Shown here in pieces: positions 15,523 through 58,057 of a stretch of 64,000 nt of DNA (within the stretch, counting starts at the first letter, position 1; each line of letters starts with the position of its first letter). The DNA is from Azolla caroliniana (lineage: Eukaryota; Plantae; Polypodiophyta): positions 4,278,001-4,342,000 of the forward strand of contig JBHGNT010000014.1 in assembly GCA_043228905.1 (NCBI GenBank), in the 5' to 3' direction. Position numbers and translations under genes: made by a program. A model generated the notes under the pieces. It saw nothing but the letters and a program-made list of their open reading frames with translations, was not told where the DNA came from and did not search any database.

Positions 15523-15531
15523 GTTGCGCTT

Positions 15532-22353: not shown

Positions 22354-24462
22354 TGTTGGGAAATAGGTTCCTCTGGATGGGAAGAGAAGAACCGATTTGG
22401 TGAGTAACTCGGCCAAGGCCAAAACCGAAATCAAGGACACAAGGGTAATTCGACCGAGGCCGAAATTGAAATAAAAACCGGCATCGAAATTGAAATTTAT
22501 TCGGAAGACTATAATTGTAAATACTCTAAAATGCCTCTTAGGGGCTATACATGTAAATAGCCAGAAAGTTGCTTTTGTCTATAAGCAACTAGGGAAAACT
22601 TTAGTAAATAGTAGTTGATCATTATTGAAAAGTTAGAACGAGGTAGTTGCCTTTGTAATCGTTGTCGCGATATTCCGCGAGTACGTGTAAGATCCAAGGT
22701 GGGACCGCGGGGGTCTTGGACTAGGGAGTAGAGGGTACTGGGAGACTAATTCCCTCCGTGATCGACCGCACCAGAGTAGCACAAAACCGGATCGTTACCG
22801 GTTTGGGTACAGGAGGCTACTAAATCAGAAAAGAGGGCGAGATGGATAGAGAGAGAGAGAGAGAGACCACGCACGCACGCAACATTGGCCTAACTCACGC
22901 CCTTATGTACAAAAACAAAGGGAAAGAAACGCATCCGACACCAACAAAGACACAAATATGCATAACCTGTTATATATAATTACAAGAGCAAGATACAACT
23001 CCGGCTTCGAGCCGGACCAAGGTAGGTTAGGTTACAACAACCGTCTACTGCCAAGTCGCCGATCGGGGAGCTCTCGGGCTCGTCGCGCCGAGTGGGGTCT
23101 TGCACAGGAGACCAAGTAGAAGCAAACCCCACTGAACATACAAGCTCTTCACCGGACTCAACCCTAAATAGACACGAAGGAGAAGAAGAAGTCGAAGAAC
23201 CCTAACCGAAAACATGAAAGTAAGAAGAAGAAGAAGAAGAAAGCTACCAAGATAACACCCTAAAACAAAGTAGGGAGAAAAGACCAAAGTACAAACCTTA
23301 AGAGAATAAGAGAAAGATGAAGACCAAGAACTACCCTAAATCTAACGGTATACCCTCCCAATTCAAAATGGGCAAGCCCTCTACAAGGGACCCTTCGTTC
23401 CTTTTATAGAACAAGGAGAGGGATGCATAACAATGTGGGATAAATCCCGATTTACATGGGATCCTCTGTCCCGATTTAACTCCTTCTCGGCACCATAAGG
23501 GCACCCCTATTATTCACATGTTTATACAAGGGTAAGTGCACATGATGCACTTTGCCGATGTTTCCAATATTTCCTGGTTTCTCACCGTGACCCGGAATCT
23601 TCACTACATCCGCCCCCACCAAACCACACGTCCACCGGTACGTGCCAAGTTCGGAGAAGGGTGAAAGATTCCGGCCGGTGAGGAACCCGTCTTCCGTAAT
23701 CTACATTTTGGCTGTCGTGTTGGCCTTGCCGGTTTGAATCGTCGGCTCCGGTTCCTTCTCCGCACTTGCCTCTCCGTAGGCTCGTTTGACCCGTCGTTAG
23801 GTCATTCACAGTGATCCCGTGGTCTGCGTGCTTCCCTGTAGGCCCTTCTTTCGACTGCATTCACGCTTCTCGTTCCTTCGGATACGCGGTGTCCTCCATC
23901 CGAGGAGCACCCGTGATGGCCCGCTTGGCCTCTGTCGACCTTCGCGTCGTCCCGATTCTCGTTCCACACTGACCTCCAACGCTTTTGTCCCTCGCCATCG
24001 CCTACCTTCTCCTTGGTCTTATGCTGCCATGACGATCGAATTGCCAAGGTCTCCAGAACCAGTGTGGAGGATCCCTCTCTGGCCTTCTACATGAGATCGC
24101 TTGGACCCACAACTCATCTTCGTGCATGTATTCCTCCTCTAGTACCTCTGTTGTCGTAGTGTAATTCACACACTACATGAAAATTGCATTTTGGTCCTTC
24201 CGAATGGGACAAGGAAGAATCGGCAAGAAAGACCCAGTGCGAACCGGAAGGAGGAACCGGTAAGGACTGAACCCGGTAAGGAGACCCAACAAGAGCCGGA
24301 TGAAAAAGGCCGGTGAGAGTCAGTGAGAAACGAGCGAAGAGGACCGGTAAGGAGGACTTGGTAAGAACCGGATAAAGAAAACCGGCGAGAACCGGATGAA
24401 GAAGGCCGGTGAGAGTCTCTCACCGGATGAAGAGACAAATTTGTAAGTAAAAGAAAAGATTG

Positions 24463-24537
24463 TTACATGCATAGGGCAAGATTCAAACCTTGCACCTCCA
24501 TGTTAATAATATTAAGCCTTACCACTATACTAGCATA
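24463..24537 (-). ncRNA. tRNA-like A-box/B-box cassette in the LTR (second copy ~27562-27635); not a canonical tRNA
   Basis: The minus strand of the 3' LTR copy reads TAGTATAGTGGTAA...GGTTCGAATC with tRNA spacing. The anticodon arm does not pair. Confidence 0.5.
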
Positions 24538-25072
24538 TTATGAATTTTAAAGTTATACTAAACTTTATCCCATGTAAATATTTTAGATATACACCAGTAC
24601 AAAAAGTTACTCATACATACACAGTCGAGTTAAAAGAAAAGATGGGATAGAAAGCTAATCATGCACATGGAGTGTGCATGAAAACTAAAGTTAGAAAAAG
24701 CATGTTAGATAAAGCATATAGTCTATAGTTAGAGAAAAAACATGGATTGTGAAGACTCTATCATCACTATATAAGGATGAGGAGCACAATGTAATAGGGG
24801 GTGAAATACTTGGAAATTGGATATATTTCCTAAAACACCAATTAATATAATATATTCTTGGGATTCACGAATTTGTGATCAAAATTGTCTCTTACTATCT
24901 AAATATTGATTAAATACACTAAACTCATGGGATTCACGAGATTCATAACTTACCTATCTTTCTACCTATTCATAACTAGCCTTATATTGTATTCTTCTTT
25001 CTCCTAGTCCAAAACCTCAGTGGTTCCCACCCGACTCACGCAACGATCTGGAGCCGAAAGGCACGACACAAG

Positions 25073-25090
25073 TGGTGAACCTGACGTGAA
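25073..25090 (+). promoter_or_regulatory. PBS, tRNA-Trp type
   Basis: TGGTGAACCTGACGTGAA is one mismatch from TGGTGAACCCGACGTGAA, the complement of the plant tRNA-Trp 3' end as I recall it. Confidence 0.85.
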
Positions 25091-25106
25091 GACGGGTGGC
25101 AAAGAG

Positions 25107-27200
25107 ATGGAGAATCAACAAGAGGCGATGACCATAATGATGATGATGATTGAGCGGATGCAACAAGAACAACGTGCGATGTCGGAGATGAAGGCGGTAG
25201 TAGAGCGGCTTCTACGACGAAATGGGGAATCAATGGAAAGGATGTGTCATGCTATCTATGTGACTACAAGGCAGAGATGATGCGATGTGGGAGACCGAAA
25301 GGATTGCAAGTGATATCCTTCAGCCGGGTAACCACGGATGGGTTACAAGAGAGAATCTACAAGATACGGCAACAAAACCCAACATGGGGGTCCTTTGAAG
25401 AAGCTTTACGAGAGGCATATGACTACGAGAGATCGAAGGGACGAGATCGGCGAGAGTTCAATGAATGGGTGGCATTGGAGAAGACCCACTGAAGTGCAAC
25501 ACTAGCATTCTTAGAGTTTGAGTATCGTTTTGCTCAACTCTCAGAGCGGGAAGAACGATTGGTGGGGATGGATAATGTCCTAATGTTCGTGAAGTCGATC
25601 AATCAGAAAGAAATCATGGACATCGGGATCAAACTCGAAGACGATGACGGTGCAAATGGTCTTACCGAGGATTGGGCTGAAGTCGAAAGGGTATGCTGGA
25701 CACATGATGAGAGGAAGATGAGAATCTTGTCAACAACTACATGGCTCATGAAGGATGGTCAATTGAGGACAAACGATGTAGCCGACATGAAGGCCGAAAT
25801 ACAATACGAAGGTACCACGGGAGAGGGTGTAGAACAAGCTACCCTCTTGTCTTGCAAAAGAACGACGGCGAAGGATAAGGCCAATAGACTAAGAGTGGCG
25901 AACACCACTTCAAGTGTAGAAGAAGATTTTGGGATACGAGTGTTCGAGACATCGGATGAGAAAGAGTTAAGCATAATAGATGCCTTCATAATTGATGGAG
26001 ATAAAGAGTGCGAGGCGGACTTGATTAAGGAGGTCGCCGCAAAAGATTACATCGAATCGGAGGTGGCTATGGACAAATCAATGTCGGATGACCATATCAA
26101 GACTTTCCCATCACTAATTCTAGAGACTCCGGCGGTTGCGTCTGAAAGGCAACGTGAGACTGAAGAGACGGAAGGTGGCGGAGAGAAAACAAAGGTCGAA
26201 GCCGATGCATACGATGGAGAGATAGCCGAGAAGGTGGCTATAGGTGAAACAACGGAGGACGATAATACCGTGGATTTCTGCCCACTAATTCTAGAGACTT
26301 CGGCAGTTGTGTCCGAGAACCAACGTGAGACCGGAGAGACGGGAGGTGGGAGTAAAGAATGTAAAATGGGAAGTGGGTTCGGATGGAAGATCATCAGGTC
26401 AGAATTCCGGTCTAAAAGAAAGCTAAAGCAAGCGGAAGTGGATTCGGGAAAAATCCGAGAGTTCGACGCGGACGGAAATCATTCCAACCGGAAGCTGATC
26501 GAACGACACCGATCCGGAAAGAAGTTCTGGAAATCAAACTGGTCGAGACCGGTGAAAACAAAGAAATGAAAGAAAATCCAGACGGAAACCGATCGGTTGA
26601 AACCGACTTGAAAGGGGGCCGAATCGGTAAAAACCGATCAACCGATTCCGATTCGGACAAATATGAATCGAAATGGAAGCCGATCTAACCGAAAGATGAT
26701 CAGACGACACCAATATAGAAAGAAGCTTATCCGACTCAACCGGAGGTCGGAGAGATCCAAGATGATAAAGACAAGGAAGAGGCCAAGTAGGTGCACTACA
26801 AAGGATGACAAGGACCAAGCGGGCCAACCAAATTTGAAGGGTGTTACCAAGGATGAGATCGCGACAAAGGAGGGCTTTATCATGAAGATTGTCAATTCTA
26901 ACACGATATTATACGACAAAGGTGGACGAAGTGGAAAGCATGTCTCCTGCACAAGAAGAGCACAAGGAGCCATCACAGCCGATCATGGCAATTCAAAGAA
27001 TGAAAGAAGAATATGGTGGATCGGATGGCAACAATGGTTCGGGTGGAAAGAATGTATATACTCAAAATGGAGAGACAAAGTCGACATAGCAAGCGAAACG
27101 AAGGGTACTACGAGTAAAGGAGAATTACGAGAAACCTGCAACCGAACAGAACCGACAACGAGACTAACAATCACCGACAACTTCGGCACATACCGGAGGA
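25107..27200 (+). pseudogene. Gag-like protein with a long acidic, low-complexity C-terminal extension (decayed)
   Basis: Fragments at 25020-25280, 25244-25492 and 25559-26569 carry repeated PLILET(P/S)AV motifs. No PR, RT, RH or IN motifs appear before the PPT. Confidence 0.7.
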
Positions 27201-30200
27201 TGTGCGGGTTTGGAGGGGGCGAGTGTCGTAGTATAATTCGCACACTACATGAAAATTGCATTTTGGTCCTTCTGAATGGGACAAGGAGGAATCGGCAAGA
27301 AAGACCCAGTGCGAACCGGAAGGAGGAACCGGTAAGGACCGAACCCGGTAAGGAGACCCAGCAAGAGCCGGATGAAAAAGGCCGGTGAGAGTCGGTGAGA
27401 AATGAACGAAGAGGACCGGTAAGGAGGACCCGGTAAGAACCGGATAAAGAAAACCGGCGAGATCTGGATGAAGCAGACCCGGTAAGAACCGGATGAAGAA
27501 GGCCAGTGAGAGTATCTCACCGGATGAAGAGACAAATTTGTAAATAAAAGAAAAGATTGTTACATGCATAAGGAAAGATTCGAACCTTGCACCTCCATGT
27601 TAGTAATGTTAAGCCTTACCACTATACTAGCATATTATGAATTTTAAAGTTATACTAAACTTTATCCCATGTAAATATTCTAGATATGCACCAGTACAAA
27701 AAGTTACTCATACATACACACTCGAGTTAAAAGAAAAGGTGGGATAGAAAGCTAATCATGCACATGGAGTGTGCATGAAAACTAAAGTTAGAAAAAGCAT
27801 GTTAGATAAAGCATATAGTCTATAGTTAGAGAAAAAACATGGATTGTGAAGACTCTCTCATCACTATATAAGGATGAGGAGCACAATGTCATACGGGGTG
27901 AAATACTTGGAAATTGGATATATTTCCTAAAACACCAATTAATATATATATATTTGTGGGATTCATGAATTTGTGATCAAAATTGTCTCTTACTATCTAA
28001 ATATTGATTAAATACACTAAACTCATGGGATTCACGAGATTCATAACTTACCTATCTTTCTACCTATTCATAACTAGCCTTATATTATATTCTTGTTTCT
28101 CCTAGTCCAAAACCTCAGTTGCTCCCACCCGACTCACGCAACGATCCGGAGCCAAAAGGCACGACACCGTGTGTTGCGCATCCCCTTCTCGTGTTCGACA
28201 CCGCCCGTGCCAAACTCCGATTACTTCCCATGCATGCGTCGTCGGCCCTTGCCCGACCAGATCGTGCATCGCCGCTTCTCCACACACCGGCGTCCTTTGC
28301 ATAACAGGAACACCCCGTAGTAGCCGGCTTGGCCACTTTCGTCTTCCGCGGTTGCCACCAGTTCGGAGCCTTCCGCTTGGCGTCGTCCCCTCATCCCCAC
28401 CAGTTTGTTACTTTAGGTTTGGCCTGCCACGCCAGTCGTTCCGACTCTGACTGAGCCGCCGAGATCTCCGAAGAGGGTGCGTCAGATCCTTCTCTGGCCC
28501 TCGATCCTGTTTTCGGTCACCGACTTGTGTACCGAGTGCATCTGATCTTTGTCTTGCCAACTCTGTTGGTCAGGTCCGTATCCGGTTCATGGCCCCATCG
28601 TTGGCCTGATACCTCTTTCCACTCTTTCGGCCCTTGCTTTGTCTGATCCCATTCGCCTACCACCACCGTCAGTCTCTCGGTCTTACCTCAGCTCCGCTGC
28701 CGACTGCCAAAATCTCCGGATCGGTGTGAGGATCGCTCATCCGCACTTCCCGCATCGCCGTTTCCCGTTTCCTGCCCCACCATCCTTCTCACTCGGTTTC
28801 ACGTTGCCATGTCGGCTTCAACTGCCGGTGTCTCCGGATCGGTGTGAGGATCCCATAGGGCCGTCTTCCACATTGTCTTCCGGCCGTGTCGGATCCGCGT
28901 CTCCGTCCTTCGTCCTTGCCGGAAGGCCCGATCTCGGTTAGTGGCCGCCTTGCCGGCCCTGATACCGCCATGCCCGCTCGTTCTCTCTTGCTGCATCGCC
29001 GGTTCCCGTTTCCTACTGCCACCATTCTTCTTATTTGATCTCACGTTGCCATGTCCGCTTGAACTTCCAGTGTCTCCGGATTGGTGTGAGGATCCCATAG
29101 GACCATCCAATCACTACCTTTGCCCTCGTCCCCTCGCTGCCACCATCCTTCTCTTGGTCTTACGTCGGTTCCGTTGTCGACTGCTGAAGTCTCTAGGCCG
29201 GTGTGGAGGATCCTCCTTAGGCCTCCCGTCATTCCTGACCTTATCTCGGGTCATCCTTCTCCGCATGTCAAGAGGGTGGCTTGCTCCACACCCTCTCCCA
29301 TGGTACCGTGGTACCGTATTCCCGGCCTCTCCGAAGGCCTGCTTCCTCCACCCTTCCGGATCGGTTATCCGGAAGTCCGCCCTACCCGGTTCTCGTTTGG
29401 GCTCATCCGATCTCTCTGAATTGCCGGGTCCCGTTCTCCTACCGCCACCGTCAGTATCTTGGTCTTATGTCGGATCCGATGCCGACCACCCAAGTCTCTA
29501 GCCCGGTGTGAGGTGACCCGTAGGACCGGTCTTCGTTCCACCGCTTTCGGATCAGTTGTATTGGCCGTGACTTCCGTGTCCTCGCCGCCACTTTCTGTCT
29601 CTTAGGTCTTCCGTTGGTTCTCGGATGCAACTGCCTAAGTCTCAGGAATGAGTGTGGAGGACCCATACTTCAGTCAACTGCCTCTTTCATTTCTCCCTGC
29701 CACCATCGACCGCCTTTCTTGCGCTTCCCCACCATCTCCCTTCTCTTTCGATCTCATGTTGCCTCGCCGGCCGAACTGCCGAAGTCTCCAATCAAAATGT
29801 GGGGATACCGATTTCGTAATGACTACCGACGACTCGTCCAGGGCCACCGACCCTTTTAGTGGTGTCGGTGGAAAGCATTCTCTCTATGATCGATCAAGCC
29901 CCACTTGGGCTTAATTCTCCAATGTCCGGAGTTTCGACTCCGATGTCGATCCCGCCGGACTCTCGACCATCTTCTTCCCGATTCCCGACCTTCTCCCGGT
30001 CGGTCTTTCTTCCCATGTAAAAGAGGGCGGCTCATTCCGCACCCTCTCCCGTATCGGCACCTTCATACCGAACCTTGCCCCTGTCGAACAATCCACATCT
30101 AGATCGTGCTCCACTCTAATCGGAACGCCGACCAGTTCGATCCCCGGTCGGGTCGACTTCCGATTTCGCTCCCTTCGGCGCCGGCTCTCATTTCCTCTTT

Positions 30201-30406
30201 CTTCTCTGCTGCGGCTCCGTCCTCAACCTCCTCGCAGGCCGTTTCCCATCCTTCTTCGCTGGCGTCTTCCATCTCTCTACTCTTATGCCGGCACATGGGC
30301 TTGACTGCCGGAGTCTCCAGAATCCGTGTGCAGGGTTCTTCTCCGCTGTCGACCTCCTCCTTGGCCGGTCTTTCTCCGCAAGTCGAGAGAGCGTCTCGCT
30401 CCACAC

Positions 30407-30865
30407 TGTTACCCGGCCAACAAAGGAGCTAAGGACACCAACACCAGGGTGTGAAAAGGGGAATTGTTATTTAGGGAATCTATTGTAATTACTAATCTTA
30501 ATATATTAATATATGAGAAGATGTGGACGGACAGACCGGAATCTGTATGCCGATCCGGATCCCGACCGATCCTGAATAGGTGCCGGTTGGCACCATTTTG
30601 TACTTCGCACCGGTGACCTATATAAAGGCCCGGTTACAATGTAGTCATTAACGGAGAGTAATATAAACGTTTTGTTTAATCATTGAGTATTGTTCACTAT
30701 TATGTGATTATGGTATATCTTATGCGTGTTGATAACGTATTACTAGTAACCAATGAAGGTCTAATTAAGCATTGTGTCATAAGTTACCTCGCCGTAACAC
30801 CCTTTGGTGAAGTGTCTTAAGGGGACACCCTATGTTAGGTTGTTGTCCGGCCCTAAGGATTAACA
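30407..30865 (+). mobile_element. Solo LTR (459 bp) of the Gypsy family at 1-5520
   Basis: TGTTA...TAACA termini with a perfect TSD CACAC. An empty-site paralogue (GCTCCACACCCTCTCCCATGG) lies at ~29283. Confidence 0.92.
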
Positions 30866-32743
30866 CACACCCTCTCCCATGGTACCATCATACCATTCGT
30901 CGGCCTCTGCCTGGGTCTTGTCCACCTTGTCCAGAAGAACGACTTGCTCTGAGTCTTCGGAATCTATCCGTGTGCCGGATCTCTCTTCTTCTTCAACCAT
31001 CGCCTTCAAAGCCTCGAACGCTTCCCGGACCAAGGCTTCGACATCGAGCTTCGACGAACCTTCTTGTTGCATGCCCGCTTCTTGTCGTGATGACACGTCG
31101 TCGCGCGTTATCTTCCTTTTTCCTTTCGCAAACTGCTCCTCATCCAACTATCGGCATACTCGTTCGACTTCCGACCATTCCTCGGTAAGGCCATTCGCTC
31201 TGTCATCGTCTTCGAGCTCAATCCCAATGGCCTCTCGTTCCGCTCGGTCAATCAACCTAACGAACAACAGGGTTGTGTCTGCCCCCACCAAACTTTGCTC
31301 CCGCTCCAGGAGCCGAACAAGCCCCCGCTCGAACTCCCGAAACGCCTTCGTTGCGCCTCGGTGGGTCTTCGCCGATGCAACCCACTAGTCGAAGTCGCAT
31401 CGTCCCCGGCTCTTCCGTCGTCCTCCATATGCCTATAGGAGCGCCTCTTCGAAAAACTCCCATGAACTATGAGCTTCTCGGAGCTCCTTTACTTCTTTCC
31501 GTGTGCATCCGGATGGCAATGCCCCGACAAAAGAACTCCAACCTCCACACACCGTCTACGCTTCGCACCTCCATTTCTGCGTTGTAGGCTTCCAAGTAGC
31601 ATGCGACTTTGTCCCCATTGAAACGGCCGACTCTCTCAACCACTCCCTTAATAGCTTGGTGCGCTGCTTCCTTCCTCATCTCCACTCGTTCGAACTCCAA
31701 CACCACTTCAGCCATCATCTCCGCGAAGTCATTGTCTTCCGACTCCATCCTCCCTTGCCGCCTTTTCACGTCTGGTTCACCAAAGATGTCGCGATATTCC
31801 GCGAGTACATGTAGGATCCAAGGCGGAACCGCGAGGTTCTTGGACTAGGGAGTAGAGGGTACCGGGAGACTGACTCTCTTCGTGACCGTCCGCACTAGAG
31901 TAGCACAAAACCGGATCGTTACCGGTTTGGGTACAGGAGGCTACTAAATTAGAAAAGAGGGCGAAATGGATAGAGAGAGAGAGAGAGCACGCACGCACGC
32001 AACACCGGCCTAACTCACGCCCTTATGTATAGAAATAAAGGGAAAGAAACGCACCTGACACCAATAGAGACACAAATATGCAGAACCTGTTATATATAAT
32101 TACAAGAGCAAGATACAACTCCGGCTTCGAGCCGGTCCAAGGTAGGTTAGGTTACAATAGCCGTCTACTGCCAAGTCGCCGATCGGGGAGCTCTCGGGCT
32201 CGTCGCGCCAAGCGGGGTCTTGCACAGGAGACCAAGCAGAAGCAAACCCCACTAAACATACAAGCTCTTCACCAACACGAAGGAGAAGAAGAAGAAGAAG
32301 AACCCTAACCGAAAACAAGAAAGTAAGAAGAAGAAGAAGAAAGCTACTAAGATGAAACCCTAAAACAAAGTAGGGAGAAAAGACCAAAGTACAAACCCTA
32401 AAAGAATAAGAGAAAGATGAAGACCAAGAACTACCCTAAATCTAACAGTATACCCTCCTAACTCAAAATGGGCAACCCCTCTACAAGAGACCCTCCCTTT
32501 CTTTTATAGAATAAGGAGAGGGATGTGTAACAATGTGGGATAAATCCCGTTTTACATGGGATCCTCTGTCCCGACTTAACTCCTATTATTCACACGGTTA
32601 TACAAGGGTAAAGGGTAAGTGCACATGATGCACTTCACCGATGCTTCATATATTCCCCGGTTACTCACCATGGCCTGGAATCTTCACGACACCGTGAGTG
32701 AGAGAGTGGGAGTGTAACTCTCTAGCAGTATTGTCATAGACAC

Positions 32744-32817
32744 AATGAAATGTAGGGGGTTGAACCCATGACCTCTTGGTCTTATTGGGAAACCCTACCA
32801 ATTGAGCTACATTCCAT
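32744..32817 (-). ncRNA. tRNA-shaped cassette at the start of the chromovirus LTR (second copy ~33473-33545)
   Basis: Minus strand, consensus of the two copies: TGGAATG TAGCTCAATTGGTAGGGT...GGTC ATGGG TTCAACC CCCTA CATTCCA. It has a 7-bp acceptor-like stem, an A box and a B box over about 72 nt. Confidence 0.6.
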
Positions 32818-33169
32818 CTATGTATTATTGTATTGTATAAGTTTCAACTTATTACATTGTAAGTTAATCACTAGAACTTTCAAGAAACTTCTAGAGAATG
32901 CATAGACATGCACTCTCTAGAAGTTTCCATGCTTCTCTAGATATTTCCTAGCTTACATGGATAGCACCACATTCTTGTATAAATACTTCGGTGCACCTTG
33001 ACTACAATCAAGGTGAACAAACTGTCACGGACGTAGACGAGGGCAAGGACAAGTAGGCGAGCTCAATATTAACAAAGAGAGAAAGATAGATATATAGATA
33101 GAGAGGAGCATAGACAAGAGAACAAGAGAGAGAGGAGCATAGACTCTAACATTCTTCTCGAATTCCATA

Positions 33170-33390: not shown

Positions 33391-34430
33391 CGATTTTCAT
33401 CAACAATACCCACATAAGACAGCCGCGAGTCTCTGGAGGCGGCCTTAGGGGGAGGATAATGTTATAGACACGATGGAATGTAGGGGGTTGAACCCATGAC
33501 GTCTTGGTCTTATTGGGCAACCTTTTCAATTGAGCTACATTCCATCTATGCATTATTGTATTGTATAAGTTTCAACTTATTACATTGTATGTTAATCACT
33601 AGAACTTTCAAGAAACTTCTAGAGAATGCATAGACATGCACTCTCTAGAAGTTTCCATGCATTCTCTAGATGTTTCCTAGCTTACATGCATACCACCACA
33701 TTCTTGTATAAATACTTCGGTGCACATTGATTACAATCAAGGTGAACAACACCAGTTACGGAAGCATAATTTAGTTCTCACTCTTTTGTCTACCCACTCT
33801 CTCTCTTGTTCTCTTGTCTATGCTCCTTTCTATCTATATATCTATCTTTCTCTCTTTGTTAATATTGAGCTCACCTACTTGTCCTTGCCCTCTTCTACAT
33901 CCGTGACAATAGCCGTTTGTCAGATGAAGGAGAACTCGAGGTCGTTGCCTCCGAGTTCCGTATTTGTACTTCCTCTCTACTATAGTGATATGTTTTCTCG
34001 GGGTTTGTGGACCCCCGTGGTTTTTTCCCATTTCGGGTTTTCCACGTAAAATATCGGTGTCTTTGTGTCTTCACGTTTTTCTGTCTGTGTACTAGTTCCT
34101 CGTTTTTGCACATGAACACGAACGTGTAACCAGTTGTTGCCAGTCGATTCCTAGCAAAGTGGTATCAGAGCGATGGAAAACTCGTTCGGCGGCAAGTTTA
34201 AGCTAACCGATGCCAACTACTTAGTGTGGAAGTCAAAGATGAGAGATATACTCGTGTGCAAAGACCTTTGGTTGCTAGTGCAGTTCGGAGATAGAAGACC
34301 AAAAAAGATCGATGCAGCGACTTTGGAAGTGTTGCATCTGAAGGCGGCCGCATATATAAGGTGTTTTATAGACATGAGTCTATACAACAACTTCCACGAA
34401 GAAACAGAAGAAGATGTTCTATGGAAGAAG

Positions 34431-36529
34431 TGTTATAGGTTTTAGGGTTAGTGTTAACATTTATGATAATCATGACAATTGATGATAAAGATAGACATGG
34501 TGGGTGTGATGACGATGGAGAGTATGATGGTGAGAGAGATCATGACGATGTTGACAAGGCATTGAGAAGCATTGTGGGGTGGGGGGTGGTGCCTAGAATG
34601 GCTCCACCCCCCTGCCAAGGGGGTTCAACATTAAGGGGAGAGAGAGGAAGAGAGATGACAAAGAGAGAGAGACAGAGAAAATGATTATTCATGTTTCATT
34701 CATTCCCCATAAGGGGTTAAATAGTACAAGAGGGGGTAGTTACATAGGGGTGCAAGCCCCCTCGAGCATTCATACATAGGTTGTTTTTGGTCGTTTCTCC
34801 GGCCGTCTTTGCTCTGGTTGACGATCCGTCGCCGTCCGTCAATCCGGTCATTTCCGGCCTCATTGCCCTACCGCTATAGCCGTCATTTGTTTCCGTTGCC
34901 TGTCCATTTCAATCATTTTTGTCCCCAGCTTCGTTGTCATCTCCGTCTCCATCTCTTTGCCTTGTCCAGTAGTCATCATCATCGTTCATCTTTCGTTGCC
35001 ATCCATCACTGTCGGCCATCACCATTGCCATCTCTATTTGGCCCGTCCGGGCACCACCACTTCATCCGGCCGCCTATGCGCTGTCAAGCCTCTGTGCCGG
35101 TGCTTCGACGTTGTTTTTTGTCCCGTTCATTCAGGCCGGCTGCAACCGCTTCCCATTGTCGTTGTCTATCATTGTCCTTTTGTCGTGGTCGTCTTGTGTC
35201 TTTGTCTCCGTCTGGGTTTGCCAGTTGCCTCTGTCGTTGTCTGTCGACCGCCCATTTCGTCTGACCGTTTGTCTGATCTGGTCCGGTCCTCCGTCTTTCT
35301 AGCTGTGTCTGTCTGGTTGGCCATGTCCTTCCGGGACTTTTTCTCTAGTTCCGCCATTCTGCATTGCCCATGGTCTTTGTGTGGCATCTCTGTCGTAGTT
35401 GACATCCATGTCTCTGTTTGTCCAGTGGTCTTCTTCTCTGTTAAGTGTCTCCAACTGTGTCTTTCTAGTGTTGTTTGTTTCTCTGTTCGTTGATGTCCGG
35501 TTTGCGTTTGCATCTCTTCTCTGTCTTCTATGGTCCTTCGGTGTTAACCAACTCTGGTTCTTGTTCCAATTCCACTTCCGACTCTCTCTGTGTTGTTTCT
35601 TCTGGAACCATTGCCAGTGCATTCTCAGCACATCCTGCCGGTCTTCGCTCCACACACTACGACTTTCTCCATAGTCTCCTGGCGGGCTTCTCTTTCCGGT
35701 CGTGCTAGCACCGGTTCCCTCTACGTTGTTGTTTGTCCAGCCGTGCATCTTGCACCACACTTTTGGGAACACGCACATTGTCGCTAACCACTTTCGGAAA
35801 CACGCACATGGACACTAATTGCAACCTCGCACACACATTGTTGCCATTCATGCATTCCTCCATATACTTCCTCCAACATCTTCACCGTCATTTTCACGTT
35901 TCGCCATTTCTTGCACTTAGTTGCTATGGCTTGCACATCTGCGTATCATTCTTCGACTCCGTCTCCAAAGGGGGATCGCCTTAGTGGTCGCCAAAAGCTA
36001 TTATAGGTTTTAGGGTTAGGGTTAACATTTATGATAATCATGACGATTGATGATAAAGATAGACATGGTGAGTGTGATGACGATGGAGAGTATGATGGTG
36101 AGAGAGATCATGACGATGTTGACAAGGCATTGAGAAGCATTGTGGGGTGGGGGGTGGTGCCTAGAATGGCTCCACCCCCCTCCCAAGGGGGTTCAACGTT
36201 AAGGGGAGAGAGAGGAAGAGAGATGACAAAGAGAGAGGGAGAGAGAGAGAGAGAGAGAAAATGATTATTGATGTTTCATTCATTCCCCATAAGGGGTTAA
36301 ATAGTACAAGAGGGGGTAGATACATAGGGGTGCAAGCGCACTTGTGCATTCATACTGGACACTCACTCACACCTCCTCTTATCCATCCACATGCACACAC
36401 GTGTGCATGTGTTCACATACGTATAGACTCAGAATTACATTTATGCCCCCTACATATACACAACATCATGATAACATTCGACCCTCGCTCATCACACTTG
36501 ACTCTCCGTACATCTCATATGGGGTAACA
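34431..36529 (-). mobile_element. Small non-autonomous LTR element with a tRNA-Arg-type PBS
   Basis: LTRs at 34431-~34775 (truncated) and 35999-36529. Minus-strand PBS TGGCGACCAC at 35984-35993. The internal region is low-complexity with no recognisable domains. Confidence 0.75.
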
Positions 36530-46882: not shown

Positions 46883-46970
46883 ACCACTCCGACTGCATAT
46901 CTGATATCCCGCCAGCTACATACCATCGTGTACATCAAGCTCCCGACGGTAGAAGCATATGGTATCTTCG

Positions 46971-48165
46971 GGGCCTCTAACCAGAGGATATCAAATTCAT
47001 GCGTTTATACTCTTAAGACTTAACGGAAATCAAAAAAGTTTGACAAATTTCATTTAGAAAGGAAAAGAAAAATTACAATCTATCCCAAGATTGGGATTAC
47101 AAAAGTTTAGGGTTTGCGAGATATGACTTTGATAAGAAACAATTAGGTTTCAAATTTATGAGATATGGCTTTCATAAGAAAAAAATTAGGGTTATTCGAG
47201 AGATATGGCGTCCATAAGGAAATTTAGGGTTTTTGATAGATAGTTTCCGTAAGGAAAATTAGGGTTTATGTGAGAGATAGCTTCCGTAAGGAAAATTAGG
47301 GTTTATTTGAGAGATAGCTTCTATAAGGAAAATTAGGGTTTTTGAGAGATAGTTTCCGTAAGGAAAATTAGGGTTTATGTGAGAGATAACTTCCGTAAGA
47401 AAAACTAGGGTTTATGGCTTCCATAAGAAAATTAGGGTTTTTCCCCCCCCCTAAAGATGGCTTTGATCCCCTAAGGACCATTCTTCCCTATGGATGGATC
47501 ATCGAGAGCTAGCTTTTCTCCTCCCTTCACGCACTTGCATGAAGGAACTCCGGTTTCCATCTTCAATTCAATTGCATGCATCCACATGACCTTTACTTTA
47601 CATAAAGTTTGACTTTAGTTGCGTGCGTTCACATAACCTTTACTTTAGATTACTTTGCTTTACTTTAGTTCGTCGCATGATCTGTTTGGTTGCATCTAGC
47701 CCGATCCGGTTCCGATTCCGTCCGGCCCGATTCGGTTGCATCTAGCCCGATCCGTTCGTCGTCTGGTTCCGGTTCGGTCGCATTTGGCCCAGTCCGGTCT
47801 CCGTCCGATCCGTTCAAAACCATTAAGAGTAATTAAGCCACATCCACCAATTCGGACAATGTAACCCAAGTCCAACCTTGAACATTCTGTGCTTCACACA
47901 TAGACATAATATAATAGGTTTTGGCTCTCCTTATATAATCTGGGATCCAATGTTGTCCTATCTATGTGGGATATCTCACAATTTTGTTTTTCTCTTCTTC
48001 TCAAACTTCACACACACATAACTTGATACTTGTTTATCCGTTTCATCTGTAGTAAAATGCGTTATGAAGCTCTTAAAGACATCTATCTTTCCTTATCAAC
48101 CCATTAAGCTAATCTTAAATAATAATTTACTAGTTTTCATATCATGTGTGAAAAACCACACGACA
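46971..48165 (+). mobile_element. 5'-truncated LTR (ends CACGACA) with a telo-box array and TATA box
   Basis: Non-coding insert in Copia pol. Its terminus CACACGACA|CCGG matches the ends of the Trp-primed family. TATATAA lies at 47932. Confidence 0.6.
47106..47440. repeat. Minisatellite of about 10 units of 35-40 bp, nearly all carrying TTAGGGTTT (telo-box)
   Basis: Consensus is roughly AAGGAAAATTAGGGTTTATGTGAGAGATAGCTTCCGT. Confidence 0.9.
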
Positions 48166-50862
48166 CCGGTTCCGGTGTCTTCTTCTTCTTCTTCTTCGTC
48201 GGTCTATTCAGTTTCTTGTCCAAATCCGGGCGGTTCATCAAGGGTCATCCGGTTACCGGGTAAGTCCTTGTGTCCTCAAACCAGTTTTCATTGGATGATC
48301 CGGAGTTCATCACCTTCTTCTCCGACTCCCATTTGGCAATGGTCCGGTCTTCCATGAAGACTACGTCCGGACTCCGGAACACCTTCTTGTTGACCAAATC
48401 CCACACCCAGTAACCGAACTCATCATTGCCGTATCCAAGGAATATGCATGGCTTGGACTTCGGATCTAGCTTTGCTCTCTTGTCCTTTGTGACATGCACA
48501 TATGCGAGACACCTAAACCCCTTTAGATGCCGGTAAGACAAGACCTTACCGGTCCATACTCTCTGTGGTGTGTCTCCATCCAAGGGTATTAACGATGATC
48601 TATTGATCACATACGTCGTTGTCATCAGCGCCTTAGCCCAAAATTTCTTGGGTAGCTTTGCATGTGCCAGCATGCTCCGGACTCTCTCCATCACGGTCTG
48701 GTTCATCCTTTCGGCCAACCCGTTCAATTCTGACTTCTTCAGCACGGTGAATTCGAGCTGGATTCCCTTTGACCAACAGTACTCCTCGAACTGCCCCAGG
48801 TATTCTCCTCCATTATCTGTTCGAACCGCTTTCAGCTTCCGGTCGGTTTCTCTTTCCACTCTCGCATGGAGCTCCTTGAAGACAGATAACACCTAATCCT
48901 TTGTCTTCAGCAATGAAACCCACAGCTTTCGGCTGTGGTCATCTATGAACGTCACAAAGTACTGCGATCCGGCATGTGACTTCATGTACACTTGACATGC
49001 ATCGGTATGCACTAGCTCCAGTGGTGCATTCCGTCTCATCAGTGGTCTTGACCGGAAGGAGGTTCGGTTTTGCTTGCCGGCCAAGCAATCGGTGCACTTC
49101 TCAAGATGCACATCTTTCACCTCTGGAATGAGGTTATCTTCGGCAAGTCTTCTCAATCCCTTCTAGCTCATATGGCACGGTCTCTTGTGCCACAACTCAC
49201 CGGTAGTGTCCAATGCTATGTTCACTTCTTCCTCTTCCGGGCTCGAGCCACAATTAGGCTTCCTTTGCTGAATTTCATGACTCCGTTCCGGAGGCTACCC
49301 GTGTAGCCTTCATCATCTAGCCGACCAACTGATATTAGGTTTAGTCGAACCTCCGGAACGTGTCGGACATCCTTCAACAACAACTTGCATCTGGTTGATG
49401 TCGTAAACAACACATCTCCTATGCCGACAATTCGGCAAGTCCCTTCATTTCCCATCCGAACACAACCGTGATCTCCGACTGTGTAGGATGAGAAGCATCT
49501 CTAGTCCGGTGTCAGGTGGAACGACACTTCGGAATCGACAACCCACATTGTCTCATCGCCGACAAGGTTTAACTCATTCTCCTCGATAATGAGCATCAGT
49601 TCTTCTTCACTTGCCACGATTGCCGATGTTCCCTTCCAATCCGACCCTTTCCGGTCCGAACCATTCTTCGAATCGGCATTGTCAGTTCCTTTCTCTTTCC
49701 GGAAGTGCCAACAGTTTTTCTGGAAGTGTCGAGGCTTTTCACAATAAAAGCAAGTAGGCCTCCCCCTTGACTTTGACCATGTCCCCGACTTTTCCCGGTT
49801 ATGGGGACTCCGGTTCCATTATCTTCCTCTCTGTGCTTCCGATTCGGTAAGGAGGGCTTTAGAGTCGGAAATCATTTCTTTGTCTTTCCGACGCGCCTCT
49901 TCATCTAGCAAGCTCTGTATCTTCGCCAGGTGGTGGTTATAACACAGTATCGCTCTATATATATCTCTCTATATATACAACAGTTATGCACATACAACAA
50001 TATGACAACACACACTTCTATGATTGCCCTAGGTCATTTTTATACTCATATGAACTTAGGACTATTTACAAATATAGCCTCAATAGGCTTACTCAAAACA
50101 TATTTACAAATATGTCTTCTCTTCCGATTCTCACCAGGTCCATCCGATCCGGTTTCCAGATCTCTTCCGGTTCTCACCGGATCCTCTTCATTCATAACCG
50201 GATCCCATCCGGAGGGACCGAAATCCCAACAAAAAGTTCCTTATGCCTCAGCAGTTGGAAGCCATCATGTACACAATGGTATGTACTAGGCCGGACATAG
50301 GATACGCAGTCGGCATGGTTAGCCAATATATGACCAACCCCTAAAGAGAGCATTGGGATGCCGTGAAGTGGATACTTTGGTACCTAAAAGGCACCTCGAA
50401 CGTATGTCTTCGTTTCGGTTCAGGTAACCTCACACTAGAAGGTTATACTAACTCAGACATGTCGGCTAATGTGGATACCATCCGATCCACATACCGATAC
50501 ATAATGACTTATGCACGGGGAGCTATTTTGTGGCAGTCAAGGTTGTAGAAGGTTGTGGCACTGTCAACCACGGAAGCCGAATATATGGCCGTAGCGAAAG
50601 CCGGCAAGGAAATCATAAGGATGAAGGAGTTTATCGATGAGCTGGGAATTCGGTAGGAGGAATTCCAACTCCATTGTGATAAGTAGAGTGTCATCCACCT
50701 TACAAAAAATGTCGCCTACCACTTGAGGACCAAACACATCCAGAGAAAATATCATTGGCTCCGAGAGCAAGTAGAAGAAAATGAGTTTTCTCTAGTGAAG
50801 ATCCACACGGCCGAAATTGATCGAATATGCTGATGAAGGTGATGTCACCCGAAAAGCTAAAC

Positions 50863-51064
50863 TGTTCAGAGTCGAACTCAACTTCCCATAGAAATAGGTT
50901 TCACACTAGCTCATGGACATCCCAGGCTAGTTTCGTGAATAGTAGAAAGGGCCCTTGCCCTAGTTTAGTTGGTATTTAAACCAACCTTTTGTAACTTTGT
51001 TACTGTTGGAAGTAATACATAGTTTTCTCATCTTAAGACTCTCTCTCTCTGTTTCTCATAAGTG

Positions 51065-51109
<45 letters not shown>

Positions 51110-54100
51110 TCCTACCACTGCATACAATCACTCTCACTCTCCTTTCTTTACATGGTATCAGAGCGTGTGGTTTTCTAATGAAGACTAATCGATTATGGTG
51201 TTCTACATACTGACGATCAACAGAACCGGTTCAAGAAACATAGAAGAAATCATCATGAATACCCAGATGAGAAGCGCTCTTCCTACGGAGAAGCTCGACA
51301 GGACAAACTTCGCATCTTGCGACTATAAGATGCATTAGTGCCTTGTCGGACAAGGATACTGGAGCTATATTGAAGGAGCTCATGAAGCGCAACCCAACCC
51401 AACACACGCTAACTATCTTGTTTGGGAGCAGGCCGCAAGTCGTGTGTTGTATTGCCTTGCATCAGGGAAGCGTGGGGCAATCTCAAGAAGATCTTCGCGG
51501 CCAATATAGCTGCCCGCAAGCTTCAGCTTCGTCAGGAGTTGAATGACATTCAACAAAGGGACATGTCAATCGGCACCTATGCCTCAAAGATCAAGGAGTT
51601 GTGTGATGCCCTCGGGTCGATCAATGTTGGCATTGATGACGAAGAAATGGTGCAGATATGCCTTGGAAAGCTTGGCACCTCGATTCAACGCAATAAGGTC
51701 CGTTGTCCTCGCAAGAGAGAATCCTCCCACCTTTTTCGATCTCCAATCAATATTCCTGGTCAAGAAAAATCATGCCCGACAAAGGAGCAACGCACTAGAG
51801 GGTGAGATGCTCTACTCCCAGCCGGATGATAGAAGAAACTTTGTCTGTGGAAATAGAGGTCGATTCTGACAAGGCCGTCACGGTCAGCAGACCCAAGAGC
51901 ATAACTCCCACCAATGGCAGGCGAACAGGAACAATCCCAAAGAGTTTGGTAGAAGGGGGAGTCATCATGCCGGACCAAGCAATCGTGATAACCCAATCAA
52001 ATGCAAATACTGCAGAAAACTCAGTCACTATGAAGAGGAGTGCCGAAAGAAGAAGTGAGAGTCGGCTTCAACCAGCCAACAACTCACAAACTACGCATCG
52101 AATTCCGACTACGACAATCGTAACGGAATATTCACGAATTACGCATTGAATTCTGAGTACGCCGATCATAGCGGAATGTTCATGATGAGGCAAAAATCAC
52201 ACTCAATGGAGACACAAGGTGAAACAAGCACCACACCCTCAAAGAATGTATGGTTTGTTGACTCGGGAGCATCCAACCTCATGACGTCTCATGAAGATTG
52301 GTTTCGGGAATTATGAAAACCCGAACGTCCTAGATATGTCAAGACAGGCGCTGACACGACTCATCCAATACAGCATATCGGGAACGTCCCATTCGACAAC
52401 GACGACAAACAAACCTTCCTCAAGAACGTACTGCATATTCCTACCATCACAAAAAACCTAGTCTCGGTCGGCCAAATTGTCGAACAAGGAATGCAAGTAC
52501 GATTCCACAATGATGGGTTCTTTATCGAAAGAGGTGATCGAGTCGTAGGTCACGGCCGTATGTTTGTCCTCGAATCGAACGAGGTAAAATCGGCAATGTT
52601 TGCAAAGGGCCTCAAAGTCAAAACCGACCTAAACTTGTGGCACAAGAGAATTGGTCACATCAATCTCCAGAAGCTTTAGAATATGCAATTGAAAGGAGTC
52701 ATAATCGAACTCCTGAACTTTAGCACAAAGGAGATTACGGGCGTATGCAAAGCGTGCCAATTCGGAAAGCAACGCTGACATCCATTCACAAAAGAGTGGA
52801 ATGTGAACAAAGGGATCATGGATGTCGTACATTCAGATGTATGGGGACCGGCCCAAAAAACCACACTCGGCAGATGCCGATATTCGGTTACGTTCATCAA
52901 CAACTTCTCCAGGCACACCTGGATCTACCTGGTAAGAAAGAAGAGTGAATTGTTCGGACACTTCCAGAGGTTGAAAGCCGAAGTTGAAAAAACTATTGGT
53001 CGGCACGTACGCCGCCTTCGATCAAATGGAGGCAAAGAATATTTCTTGGATGAGTTTACGGTCGTATCTCCGAAAGGAAGGAATCCGACGAGAATTTTCA
53101 TGCCGTCACACACCTCATCAAAACGGCGTAGCCGAGCGGAAGAACCGACACATAGTAGAGGTTGCACGGGCAATGATGAACGAGAAGAACCTGCCAAAAT
53201 CATACTATGCAGAAGCGGCGAACACGGCCATATACCTCATGAACAGGTGCACAATCTCGAGAGTACACGACGCAACCCCCCATGAGAAGTTTCTTGGTAA
53301 GAAGCCGGACTTATCACATGTTCGTATTTTTGGCTCAATCGCTTATGTGCATAGTCCCAATGATACACGACAAAAGCTCGACCTGAAGTCAAAGAAATGT
53401 ATCCTCGTTGGGTACCTGCTCGAACAGAAGGGGTACAAATGCTACAATCCATGTACCCGAAAAGTTCGAACAAGTCGAGATGTCGTTTTCGACGAGTCCG
53501 CATCCTGGTACGCACCAGAGACAACTTCGACTCCGACTCCGCTCGACCCGGAATACGCTGAAATAGAGGCAGAAGCCGAAGATCGACTTACACGCATCTT
53601 CGACAAAAGTCCAATCATGACCCGAATAAGTGGGCCACAAGAACCTCCGAGTTATCAAAGCACTTCTCTGACGAGCCCAAAGTTGGACAAAGGGAAGGCC
53701 AAAATGTTGGAGTATAAAGACAATTACTTCAACGACAACGAATTGACTCACTCCCTCGATAGTGAGTTTGAAGGCCTTGACATCCGGACAAATGGAGGCA
53801 AGAAAGCCTTAGTATCCGCAAATGAGAAGCTCTGCCGATCCACCCGTGAAAAGAACCTCGTAAGACAATTTAGCTACAACGATTACATGGCGTATCATCA
53901 CGCCTTTATGATGAAGGTAGCGTCAGTACGTGAGCCGGAAACCCTTTCCGAAGCCATAAAGGATCCACAATGGATCGACACGATGAATGAAGAAATGCAA
54001 GCCCTATGCAAAAATGAGACATGGGATCTCATTCCTCACATTCCGCACAAGAAAGCAATTGGTTGTCGATGAATTTACAAAGTAAAACACAATGCCGACG

Positions 54101-55734
54101 GCTCCATAAATCGCTTCGAAGCATGGCTCATTGGGAAAGGATGCGCACAAACGCACGGAGTTGGCTACGAAGAGACCTTTGCCCTAGTGGCAAAGATGAC
54201 AACTGTGTGAACCGTGGTTGCAATCACATCAGCAAAAGGGTGGCACCTCCATCAGATGGATGTGAAGAGCGCCTTCCTCCAAGAGGAACTAGAGGAGGAA
54301 GTGTACATGATCCAACCACCCGGCTTTGAATCGTGCAATCATCTGAACGACGTTTGCCAACTCAAGAAGCCACTCTACGGCCTCAAACAAGCATCGTGTG
54401 CGTGGCATTCGAAGATCGCGCAGTATCTTCATCAAATCGGATTTTGAATGTCAAAATCTAATAATTCTATGTACATCCAAAACGAGTCAAATAGCCCAAT
54501 CGTCATCATCCTATACGTGGATGGATTTGGTCATCGGAGGAAAGGAGCTCGCAGAGATTAACAAGGTCAAATCACTTCTCTTTGGCAGATTCGAAATGAA
54601 AGACTTGCACGAGCTCCATTACTTCTTAGGCATCGAAGTTATTCAGACACCAGTCGGGATAATGATCTCACAACGACACTACGTCCTCAACTTACTCTAC
54701 AAGTTCCGCAGGATGGAGTGCAAACCTGTGTCCACCCCGCTTGATTGTAATCTCAAGCTTGATGTTGATTCCAGAACAGCGGAGTGCGAGCCAACTCAGT
54801 ATCGCCAATTGATCGGCAGCCTCATCTACCTAACCATTACGCGACCCGACCACAACTATTCTGTCGGCCTACTCAATGAATTCATGTAGAATCCGCGAAA
54901 CCTTCATCTTGATTGTGCTAAGAGGGTACTTTGGTACCCCAGTGGTATGATGGATTATGGCATCAGATACAGGTCAAATACGATAATTTTACTCGAAGGG
55001 TACACAGACGTGGAGTTGGGCAGGTTAGAAAGCGGATAGACAATCAACATTAGGATTCGTCTTCTCCCTCAGCAGTGGAGCAATCTCATGGAGTAGCAAG
55101 AAGCAACCGACAGTCGCACTATCGACCAAAGAGACCGAATACAGGGGTGCGGCGGTCACCGTATGCGAAGCCGTATGGCTCAAGCGTATCCTGAAGGATC
55201 TAGGCATACCCATCAAGGATCTGATTCATCTATACTACGACAACATGAGCAGTATCTACCTGGCGCGAAACCCCGTATTCCACTCGCGGATTAAGCATGT
55301 CGAAGTGCACTACCACTTTATCTGCGAACACATGCAGGCTGGAGATATAGACATACACCACATCAACACGAATCTACAGGTAGCTGAGATTTTCACGAAA
55401 GCCCTAGGTATCGACAAGCTGTAGTAGTTCGCATCGAACCTTGGCCTATCTATTCCCGACCAACTGAGCTTGAGGGGGAGTACATAACAATGAACCGATT
55501 GATTGATTGAAGCCGAACAAGGAGTATGCAACTGAAAAGCCGAACAATCGAAGTTCAAAGCGTTCCGAAGACCGATTTGAAACAATTTTTCGATATCTGG
55601 AAGTTTTGATCGAAGGGGCGTGTTGAGAATCGAACTCAACTTCCCATAGAAATAGGTTTCACACTAGCTCATGGATATACCATGCTAGTTTTGTAAATAG
55701 TAGAAAGGGCCCTTGCCCTAGTTTAGTCAGTATT
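50863..55734 (+). mobile_element. Decayed Ty1/Copia with its 3' LTR interrupted
   Basis: 5' LTR 50863-51152, PBS 51153-51164, fragmented gag-pol ~51255-55490. The 3' LTR starts at 55621 and is cut at 55734. Confidence 0.9.
51067..51106. repeat. (CA)20 microsatellite inside the LTR
   Basis: Read directly from the sequence. Confidence 0.95.
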
Positions 55735-58057
55735 TGTTGAGCGAGCAAGCTCAATCGTATTAGGATCTGCTAAATAAGCTAGAGCCGGATCGGTATCCAG
55801 AACGGAGAACGGATCGGTGTCCGGAGGATATCCGGAACCAAGAGCCGGATCAGATTGAAACCGGTAGGCCGTTAGAGGCCTACGGATCCAGCCTAGTACG
55901 TAGGCATATTTTTGGGAGTCAGTGTTAGTCGCTCGTATGAGCATTGAAGTACCTGTTAGTATTTTTGTCAGTCCTTTATGGACTTGTATAAAAGTGCACT
56001 CTGAGCACATTCTATGTACAAAGGATTGTATTTTTTTAATAGAGTTTTTTATGTTCTGATGTCTCTCTGTCTCTCCCGTGTATGCTAAGTACTCTCAAGC
56101 TTCCATTGAACCTGTTTTATTCTCAGATGCTACCCGGCTAAACTGTTTTTGTCAAACCTTCGGCACGCTAACTTTCGCATGGTATCAGAGCGCAGGAGTT
56201 GAGATTCCTCTGCAGTCGACAGACATTTTCGAAGACAAACCCTAACACCCGGTGAAGAACAGTAGAGAACCGAAATGGACATACGTATGGCAAGTTCGCT
56301 TCCCACAAAAAAGCTCGACTGGAGCAACTATGCATACTGGTCATATAAAATGCAGCAGTACCTATGGGGGCATGGATATTGAAGCTATGTGGAAGGAACT
56401 AACGAGGTAGCACCGAAGCTGGCACACAAAGACTTCCCGGCATGGGAGCAAGGAGCCAACTGAGTATTGTACTGCCTCGCGTCAAGTGTGCATGATCAAA
56501 TGCTCGGTTACATCAAGGATGCAAAAACCAAAGGAGGCTTGGGAAAATCTATCGAAGATTTTCACCGCAAGTACCACAACCCGTAAGTTGGAGCTCTGGC
56601 AAGAGCTGAACAACATCTGGCAGAGAGGTATGTCAGTTACAGACTACATCACCAAGATTAAGGAGATCTACAATGCACTCGAATCCATCAACGTAATGGT
56701 GGAAGAAGACGAGATGGTCCAGATCTATCTTGGTGGTCTAGCCCAATAGTATGGGTCAATCCAGACGGCAATTTGCACCCGGGAGAAGCCATTGTCTTTC
56801 TTCGACCTACAATCGATGTTGATGGTCGAAGAAAACCACATGAGTGGGTCGATGACCACTCAATCAGATAGCCAGCTGCTGTACACGGAGGCGGATCGGC
56901 CCCGTGGGCGTGGAGGACAAGGTTGGTCGGCACGCAATGGAGGTGGGTCGGCACACAATGGAGGTGGCCGGCAAGAGCAAAACCGAAGGCACAGAGACGG
57001 TGTCGACAGCACTTCTAGACCCTCCGCAAGTAGGGTAGGTCAAGTTGGAGCCGGAAACCGACAGTGGAAAACCGACACGAAATGTTGGTACTGTGGCAAG
57101 AAAGGCCACAAAGAAAGCGAGTGATGGAAAAAGAGTGCCAATTCGGACAAATCCAAATCCCTAAACCCTAAACAAAACGGTGCGGAGAGAATTCAACTAC
57201 CGATACACACCAGAACAAAATGGTGCGGCCGAAAGGAAGAACCAGTCGATTGTCGACGCGGCAAGGGCAATGCTAGAGGAGAAGAGCATGCCCAACTTCT
57301 ACTGGGTTGAGGCAGTCCAGACAGCCGTCTACATCCAAAATCGGATCAGAGACAAGGTGTCAGCACATGAGTTGTATTTCGGGCGGAAGTCGAATTTGAG
57401 AGACCTTCGGATATTCGGTAGCATAGCATATGTGTATGTACCGAATGAGAAGCCGAGAATGTTGGATCCGAAGTCAGAGACGGGGTATAAATGTCAAAAT
57501 CCCCGTACTAAACAGGTTCGAGTAAGCCGAGATTTTGAGTTTGATGAGTCGGCATCATGGTACTCTCTCCCGATTCCAACTCCCGATGAAGACCCGATTC
57601 CGAAGGATGAAGAAGGATTCGGTACTCTAGATGAGAGTCTGATCTCATTCCGGCTAAGTGGGTCGAATGAGCGGCTGTGTCGGAATGACCATTTAGATTA
57701 AGAACCGACGAGTAGTGGAGACTTTGTCGTGCTCTCCCTGCACAAGAAACCGAGGCGACGGTTCATGCACAAAGAGAAGGGGAAGAAAAAGATCTCAGAA
57801 TACAACACCGGCAGTGAAGAGTCAGATCAGAGTGATTCTAACTCCAGACAAAACAAAGTCAGATCTTCTGAATAGAAATCTGAACTGGCCAAGAAAGGCC
57901 TCAAACCAGTTGACGAAAAATTGTGGCAGTCAACATGCCAAAAGAATACCATAAAACGGTGCGAATACAATGATTACATGTCACATCACTCTGCGTACAT
58001 GACCAAGGTGGCGTAAGTGCATGAGCCGGAGAGCTACGCAGAAGCAGCAAAAGACGT
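55735..58057 (+). mobile_element. Decayed, internally deleted Ty1/Copia (5' part)
   Basis: 5' LTR 55735-56179, PBS 56180-56191, gag from 56275. A deletion at ~57160 removes PR and the N-terminal half of IN. The element is interrupted at 58058. Confidence 0.88.

What the first reader, a model, noticed from the sequence alone, without database searches (positions are those of the whole stretch)
22659..58057. 4-bp target duplications centred on CG: apparent CpG-directed integration
Seen: both complete Trp-family copies have 4-bp rather than 5-bp flanks, CTGT/CCGT (24148-24151, 28167-28170) and TCGT/CCGT (22659-22662, 32692-32695). Each pair differs by one C>T. One-sided junctions give CCGG (48166) and ACGT (58054). 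The fifth is CCAC (20434), probably ancestral CCGC because the homologous RT reads YAAKVK. The other elements here with recoverable TSDs have 5-bp duplications with no common motif. Inference: the helper integrase makes a 4-bp stagger at NCGN, possibly reading methylated CG to target heterochromatin. The sample is only five sites, in CG-rich hosts.
Basis: partly seen in the sequence, partly recalled or inferred. Interest (0 to 1): 0.78.

Follow-up and report, generated by a model that had tools for sequence, protein, structure and literature searches.

The report
Phygy-type retrotransposons that insert at CG
These jumping-gene copies duplicate four bases centred on CG when they insert, a real and strong preference that was already published for the moss Phygy lineage to which they likely belong, while the idea that they read methylated CG remains untested.

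Summary
The five elements are pol-less Ty3/gypsy LTR elements with a Trp-type primer site. Both complete copies have 4-bp duplications (CTGT/CCGT, TCGT/CCGT); two one-sided junctions read CCGG and ACGT; the fifth (CCAC) is not NCGN. Four other elements have 5-bp duplications without a motif. Independent sites confirm it: 21 of 22 5' junctions of related families in metagenome contigs are NCGN against about 5% background, 3 of 3 usable 3' junctions too, and loose ends in three public runs end in ACGT, ACGC, ACGT. Neumann et al. 2019 list exactly this for Phygy: 186 elements, 4 bp, NCGN, tRNA-Trp. Autonomous relatives have RT-RH-IN with no chromodomain, no extra RNase H and no methyl-reader domain. 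No A at position 4 (0 of 22) refines the motif to VCGB, as in 4-bp retroviral intasomes. Most likely the integrase reads the CG sequence itself; methyl-CG reading is neither supported nor excluded.

The parts
24152..28166 (+). E1: pol-less LTR element, LTRs 24152-25068 and 27224-28166 (3.8% apart), primer site at 25073, broken gag-like frame, purine tract before 27224; nested in E2
24148..24151 (+). E1 left target copy CTGT
28167..28170 (+). E1 right target copy CCGT
22663..32691 (-). E2: pol-less LTR element, 5' LTR 32691-31787, 3' LTR 23608-22663 (8.3% apart), primer site at 31782, broken gag-like frame; about 5.6 kb without its two nested insertions; sits in a copia-type LTR
22659..22662 (+). 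E2 target copy TCGT
32692..32695 (+). E2 target copy CCGT
20438..22355 (+). E3: 5' LTR 20438-21006, primer site at 21012, broken gag-like frame; cut off by a later LTR insertion; inserted in a gypsy RT
20434..20437 (+). E3 flank CCAC (not NCGN; one side only)
46969..48165 (-). E4: LTR of the same group, start at 48165, cut about 45 nt before its end; in a copia element
48166..48169 (+). E4 flank CCGG (one side only)
58058..58574 (-). E5: 3' LTR 58549-58058 with purine tract and a short internal stub; in a copia RT
58054..58057 (+). E5 flank ACGT (one side only)

Best explanation
E1-E5 are pol-less copies of a Trp-primed Ty3/gypsy group that insert with a 4-bp duplication centred on CG; they likely belong to the Phygy lineage and are likely moved by a helper integrase that recognises the CG sequence itself, without needing it to be methylated. 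Shown: the 4-bp register, the CG centre, the lack of pol in the window copies, the existence of gag+pol relatives that share LTR ends, primer site, purine tract and gag N-terminus. Inferred: trans-mobilisation by those relatives; a symmetric intasome that bends the central pyrimidine-purine step (hence few T at position 1 and no A at position 4) and adds base contacts that pick CG over CA, TG and TA; C>T changes in the duplications arising afterwards by deamination of methylated cytosines in silenced nests. Because CG is common in young retroelements and scarce in some other DNA, sequence choice alone would favour nesting.
For: 21 of 22 5' junctions NCGN in eight LTR-start groups; 3 of 3 usable 3' junctions; CG at -3/-2 on the left and +2/+3 on the right fixes a 4-bp register; loose ends at E1's LTR start end in ACGT, ACGC, ACGT and ACG+G. 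Phygy: 4 bp 100%, NCGN, tRNA-Trp 81%. E1 gag N-terminus 74% DNA identity to autonomous L053 over 314 nt and E1's last internal 35 nt 94% to L015/L062. Helper pol: RT, RNase H, zinc-binding and core integrase only, 12 of 12 proteins scanned without chromodomain or methyl-binding family; the profile aligns to Ty3 Gag-Pol through the integrase C-terminal domain with only an acidic tail left. T 2 of 22 at position 1, A 0 of 22 at position 4, the pattern described for 4-bp retroviruses. CG is 21.5% of YR steps in the flanks, so bending alone does not explain it (P about 2e-13). ZAM subgroup targets CGCG in Drosophila; that flies lack maintenance CG methylation is recalled.
Against: No Phygy reference sequence could be read, so lineage placement rests on structural traits. 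No methylation data. A methyl group could be sensed by the catalytic core with no separate domain. 10 of 22 flanks resemble other repeats (no control), and Phygy domains are reported enriched at centromeres of a liverwort, which fits some chromatin steering. Two uncalled candidate starts (L031 ACAC, L002 AATA) would be misses.
Confidence: 0.72

Rival explanations
1. The integrase (or a tethered host factor) prefers 5-methyl-CG and so steers insertions into methylated heterochromatin.
For: All five window sites lie in other retroelements; both duplication mismatches and the one metagenome miss (ATGG) are C>T; Phygy enriched at centromeres in Apopellia and often nested in Tcn1 in Physcomitrella.
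Against: The window is almost all retroelement, so nesting is uninformative; deamination can follow insertion; no reader domain; CG-centred targets reported in Drosophila.
Confidence: 0.15
2. The trait is real but these families are a separate Trp-primed clade (for example TatI-like or a sister of Phygy) that shares or re-evolved the NCGN rule.
For: TatI also has 4-bp duplications and tRNA-Trp (n=4); no protein named from Physcomitrium among the 120 listed of 194 pol hits or the 29 gag hits; the L013 autonomous unit is 7.3 kb, just under the Phygy range.
Against: No extra RNase H in the relatives, which defines Tat; NCGN is reported for Phygy alone among plant lineages; nearest named proteins are from the liverwort Riccia at 66%.
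Confidence: 0.11
3. Chance or misplaced boundaries: CG at the junctions reflects CG-rich hosts or belongs to the LTR ends.
For: Only five sites in the window, one a miss; LTR termini themselves hold CG (TGTCG...CGACA).
Against: Boundaries were fixed by purine-tract-anchored LTR starts and primer sites; 21 of 22 against 5% background, other offsets at background; sites in flanks with no other CG in 96 nt (L034, L044).
Confidence: 0.02

Closest known systems
Phygy (non-chromovirus Ty3/gypsy, Physcomitrella; Neumann et al. 2019, PMC6317226; seen: passages and supplement file 3)
   Same: 4-bp duplication, NCGN preference, tRNA-Trp primer, no extra polyprotein domain, no extra ORFs.
   Different: The window copies lack pol and are shorter (4.0 and about 5.6 kb against 7.7-10 kb); my sites narrow NCGN to VCGB; tree placement untested.
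TatI (Selaginella; same paper, supplement file 3)
   Same: 4-bp duplication, tRNA-Trp primer.
   Different: TatI carries an extra RNase H, absent in the relatives here; no NCGN rule reported.
Drosophila ZAM subgroup (PMC5408687; seen: passages; PMC3276498 passages give ZAM 4 bp)
   Same: Gypsy-type integrase, palindromic CG-centred target (CGCG), 4-bp duplication.
   Different: Insect errantiviruses; stricter outer bases; relationship to this clade not tested.
4-bp retroviral intasomes, PFV and MLV (PMC4422553; seen: abstract and section 6)
   Same: Central YR step, T and A disfavoured at the first and last duplicated positions.
   Different: Their preference is weak and covers all YR steps; here CG is nearly obligatory.
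TR-GAG non-autonomous elements (recalled; no call)
   Same: LTR elements that keep gag-like coding sequence and lack pol.
   Different: Described from flowering plants as I recall; not compared here.

Membership tests
Phygy | 4-bp target duplication | tested here: met
   2 of 2 complete copies, each with one C>T; left and right CG offsets agree
Phygy | NCGN target preference | tested here: met
   4 of 5 in the window; 21 of 22 in related loci
Phygy | Primer site for tRNA-Trp | tested here: met
   TGGTGAACC-type site behind the 5' LTR of E1-E3; E4, E5 by LTR likeness. That this motif matches plant tRNA-Trp is recalled; no tRNA library was queried
Phygy | Gypsy order RT-RH-IN, no chromodomain, no extra RNase H | tested here: met
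   In the autonomous relatives L009, L013, L015, L052, L053, L062; the window copies have no pol
Phygy | Clusters with Phygy in RT/RH/IN trees (the formal definition) | not testable with these tools
   Reference FASTA too large to read; no Physcomitrium-named hit
Phygy | Length 7.7-10 kb with polyprotein filling the interior (descriptive, for autonomous copies) | tested here: inconclusive
   Window copies are pol-less and shorter; autonomous unit in L013 is 7.3 kb with gag and pol filling it
TatI | Extra (archaeal-type) RNase H in the polyprotein | tested here: not met
   No second RNase H family; profile aligns to Ty3 without such an insert
Chromovirus (heterochromatin-targeting) | Chromodomain at the integrase C-terminus | tested here: not met

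The most novel reading that the evidence does not exclude
Phygy-type integrases are methyl-CG-sensing enzymes: a reader-less catalytic core that prefers 5mCG in a VCGB context and so sends autonomous and gag-only copies into already silenced DNA, a route to heterochromatin that needs no chromodomain.
Probability: 0.15. Interest if true: 0.7.

Novelty: new member of a known kind. Interest (0 to 1): 0.22.

Why it matters
Neumann et al. call Phygy the one plant LTR lineage with a target-sequence preference. These data show that the rule holds across at least eight related LTR groups and for pol-less copies, and narrow it to VCGB. Intact gag and pol frames of relatives (L053, L062, L013) make the open question testable: whether CG choice depends on methylation. 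If it does not, it is a useful model of sequence-specific gypsy integration; if it does, it would be a new way to target heterochromatin.

Tried and rejected
No genome is held, so no genome-wide count. Empty-site comparison inside the window: the homologous LTR at 17395-17583 shows E2's flanks are contiguous but differs at the site; other hosts' homologues stop or differ at the junction, so no pre-insertion sequence was recovered. The gypsy at 1-5450 is not the helper: another primer site and 25-30% identity to the Trp-group pol. First lay of reads on 2.6 kb did not list the junction rows. No locus held both host junctions of one element, so no further paired duplications. Atlas search gave only generic gypsy clusters. 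The integrase fold job had not finished after nine collections and no fold search was run. Paper searches for NCGN/CpG target preference with methylation found nothing or nothing to the point (listings; no passage); most subscription papers are not searched. Earlier-finding look-ups were empty. The host species was not determined; 'bryophyte-like' is an inference.

Full report
Observation. The window is a nest of LTR retroelements (GC 46.5%). E1 (24152-28166) and E2 (22663-32691, minus) are complete, with a TGGTGAACC primer site four bases behind the 5' LTR and a purine tract before the 3' LTR; reading this site as tRNA-Trp is recalled. Their duplications fit 4 bp with one C>T each and do not fit 5 bp. 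E4 (48165) and E5 (58058) are LTRs of the same group by likeness to primer-bearing LTRs elsewhere. E3's flank CCAC is a miss. Four of five at a CG frequency of 0.06 has P about 6e-5, post hoc. Four other elements have 5-bp duplications with no motif; five gave none.

Independent sites. No genome is held. A scan of metagenome contigs for LTR end plus primer site gave 122 loci (42 of 64 parts scanned; long flanks fetched for 80). LTR starts were anchored on copies preceded by a purine tract, so the host flank did not define them. First pass: 21 of 32 non-tract hits were NCGN, other offsets at background. The 11 misses were two decayed purine tracts, two reverse LTR ends beside a primer site, six weak internal matches and one true site, ATGG. 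A stricter rule, set after seeing that pass (TG-type start, 350-1500 nt upstream of the primer site), gave 21 of 22; three hits outside that distance gave 1 of 3. Four loci with uncalled candidate starts would add two NCGN (L049, L053) and two misses (L031, L002). The 22 sites fall in eight LTR-start groups, one with 12 members; CG is 5.1% of flank dinucleotides. At 3' ends, L013, L045 and L078 give ACGT, ACGG, ACGT; three rows were dropped as internal or artefact. CG at -3/-2 on one side and +2/+3 on the other fixes a 4-bp stagger. E1's own family is high-copy in public runs; laid on the 3' LTR start, contigs that leave at 27224 have consensus ends ACGT (X1, 8 contigs), ACGC (X2, 7), ACGT (X11, 5), and two X11 contigs leaving one base earlier read ACG plus the matched G, while overall agreement is only about 0.5, as for unrelated flanks; no such row was shown for X5 and 57 rows were hidden.

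What the elements are. E1-E3 keep a broken gag-like frame and the window has no pol of this group. The loci include gag+pol relatives (L009, L013, L014, L015, L053, L062). E1 shares its gag start with L053 (74% over 314 nt) and its last internal bases with L015 and L062; L013 holds an autonomous and a pol-less unit in tandem. Pol has RT, RNase H, zinc-binding and core integrase, gag has DUF4100 and a protease; none of 12 proteins has a chromodomain, second RNase H or methyl-binding family. A profile of 48 sequences aligns to Ty3 Gag-Pol to the end of the integrase C-terminal domain. The nearest named proteins are from the liverwort Riccia sorocarpa (66%).

What is known. Neumann et al. 2019 (PMC6317226; passages and supplement file 3 read; the element table and FASTA could not be read and may hold the per-element duplications) state that Phygy elements prefer NCGN and list 186 elements, 4 bp in 100%, tRNA-Trp in 81%. 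Jedlicka et al. 2019 (PMC6911290, passages) also find 4 bp commonest for Phygy. Phygy domains are reported from the liverwort Apopellia, enriched at centromeres (PMC12885004, passages). So the trait is known; membership is met on four traits and untested on the tree.

Mechanism. Position 1 is T in 2 of 22 and position 4 is A in 0 of 22 (P about 3e-4 for the latter, post hoc), which narrows the motif to VCGB; one window site (E2, TCGT copy) departs, by a C>T from its twin. Retroviruses with 4-bp duplications disfavour T and A at those places and favour a central YR step (PMC4422553, abstract and section 6). Bending alone is not enough, since CG is 21.5% of YR steps in the flanks, so base contacts are inferred. 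A CG-centred target is also reported for the Drosophila ZAM subgroup (PMC5408687, passages), in a host that by my recall lacks maintenance CG methylation. For methyl reading: sites lie in repeats (5 of 5 in the window; 10 of 22 flanks with a repeat-like hit, no control) and mismatches are C>T. But the window is nearly all repeats, and methylation after insertion explains the mismatches: 11 of 26 transitions between E1's LTRs are in CG. Two sites lie in flanks with no other CG in 96 nt, so the signal is not a by-product of CG-rich hosts. I found no paper that tests methyl dependence for this lineage.

Verdict. Real, strong, and already described in kind. New here: pol-less members, more families, the VCGB refinement, and intact helper frames for a test. 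Interest 0.22.

Noticed in passing
window 10569-16008: Young copia element with one intact 1460-aa frame, LTRs 0.6% apart, CTATA duplication, in DNA strongly depleted of CG (o/e 0.13-0.39) while surrounding elements are near 0.9.
   Followed up: partly
L013:186-11295: Tandem array LTR-autonomous unit-LTR-pol-less unit-LTR sharing LTRs; the first LTR is itself preceded by a purine tract.
   Followed up: partly
L013:7395-10688, L075:333-4610, L041:2339-4240: Pol-less relatives keep long open frames (630-1430 aa) that start gag-like and run into repeat-rich sequence; no Pfam hit for the two scanned. They may be under selection.
   Followed up: partly
window 1-5450 (-), 30450-30868, 34432-36355: A second gypsy group with a TGGCGACC primer site (tRNA-Arg by recall): a broken gag-pol element, a solo LTR inside E2 and a short pol-less copy; duplications not recoverable.
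   Followed up: partly
window 25069 to 24237; 23608 to 22660 (runs X1, X3): Contig joints suggesting an E1-type copy inserted into an E1-type LTR with CG at the joint, and an LTR end joined to an LTR start for E2; L031 has a similar LTR-end-like flank before its start.
   Followed up: no
integrase core of P0010-P0132: The loop after the second catalytic Asp is DRGEL[DN] in most relatives matched, a candidate for target-base contacts.
   Followed up: no
22 junction sites: C at position -5, just outside the duplication, in 11 of 22, and A or T at -6 in 16 of 22; not tested further.
   Followed up: no
window 33023-33134 and 33797-33908: Inverted 112-nt repeats (96%) overlapping a short element with LTRs at 32732-33019 and 33460-33748; structure unresolved.
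   Followed up: no
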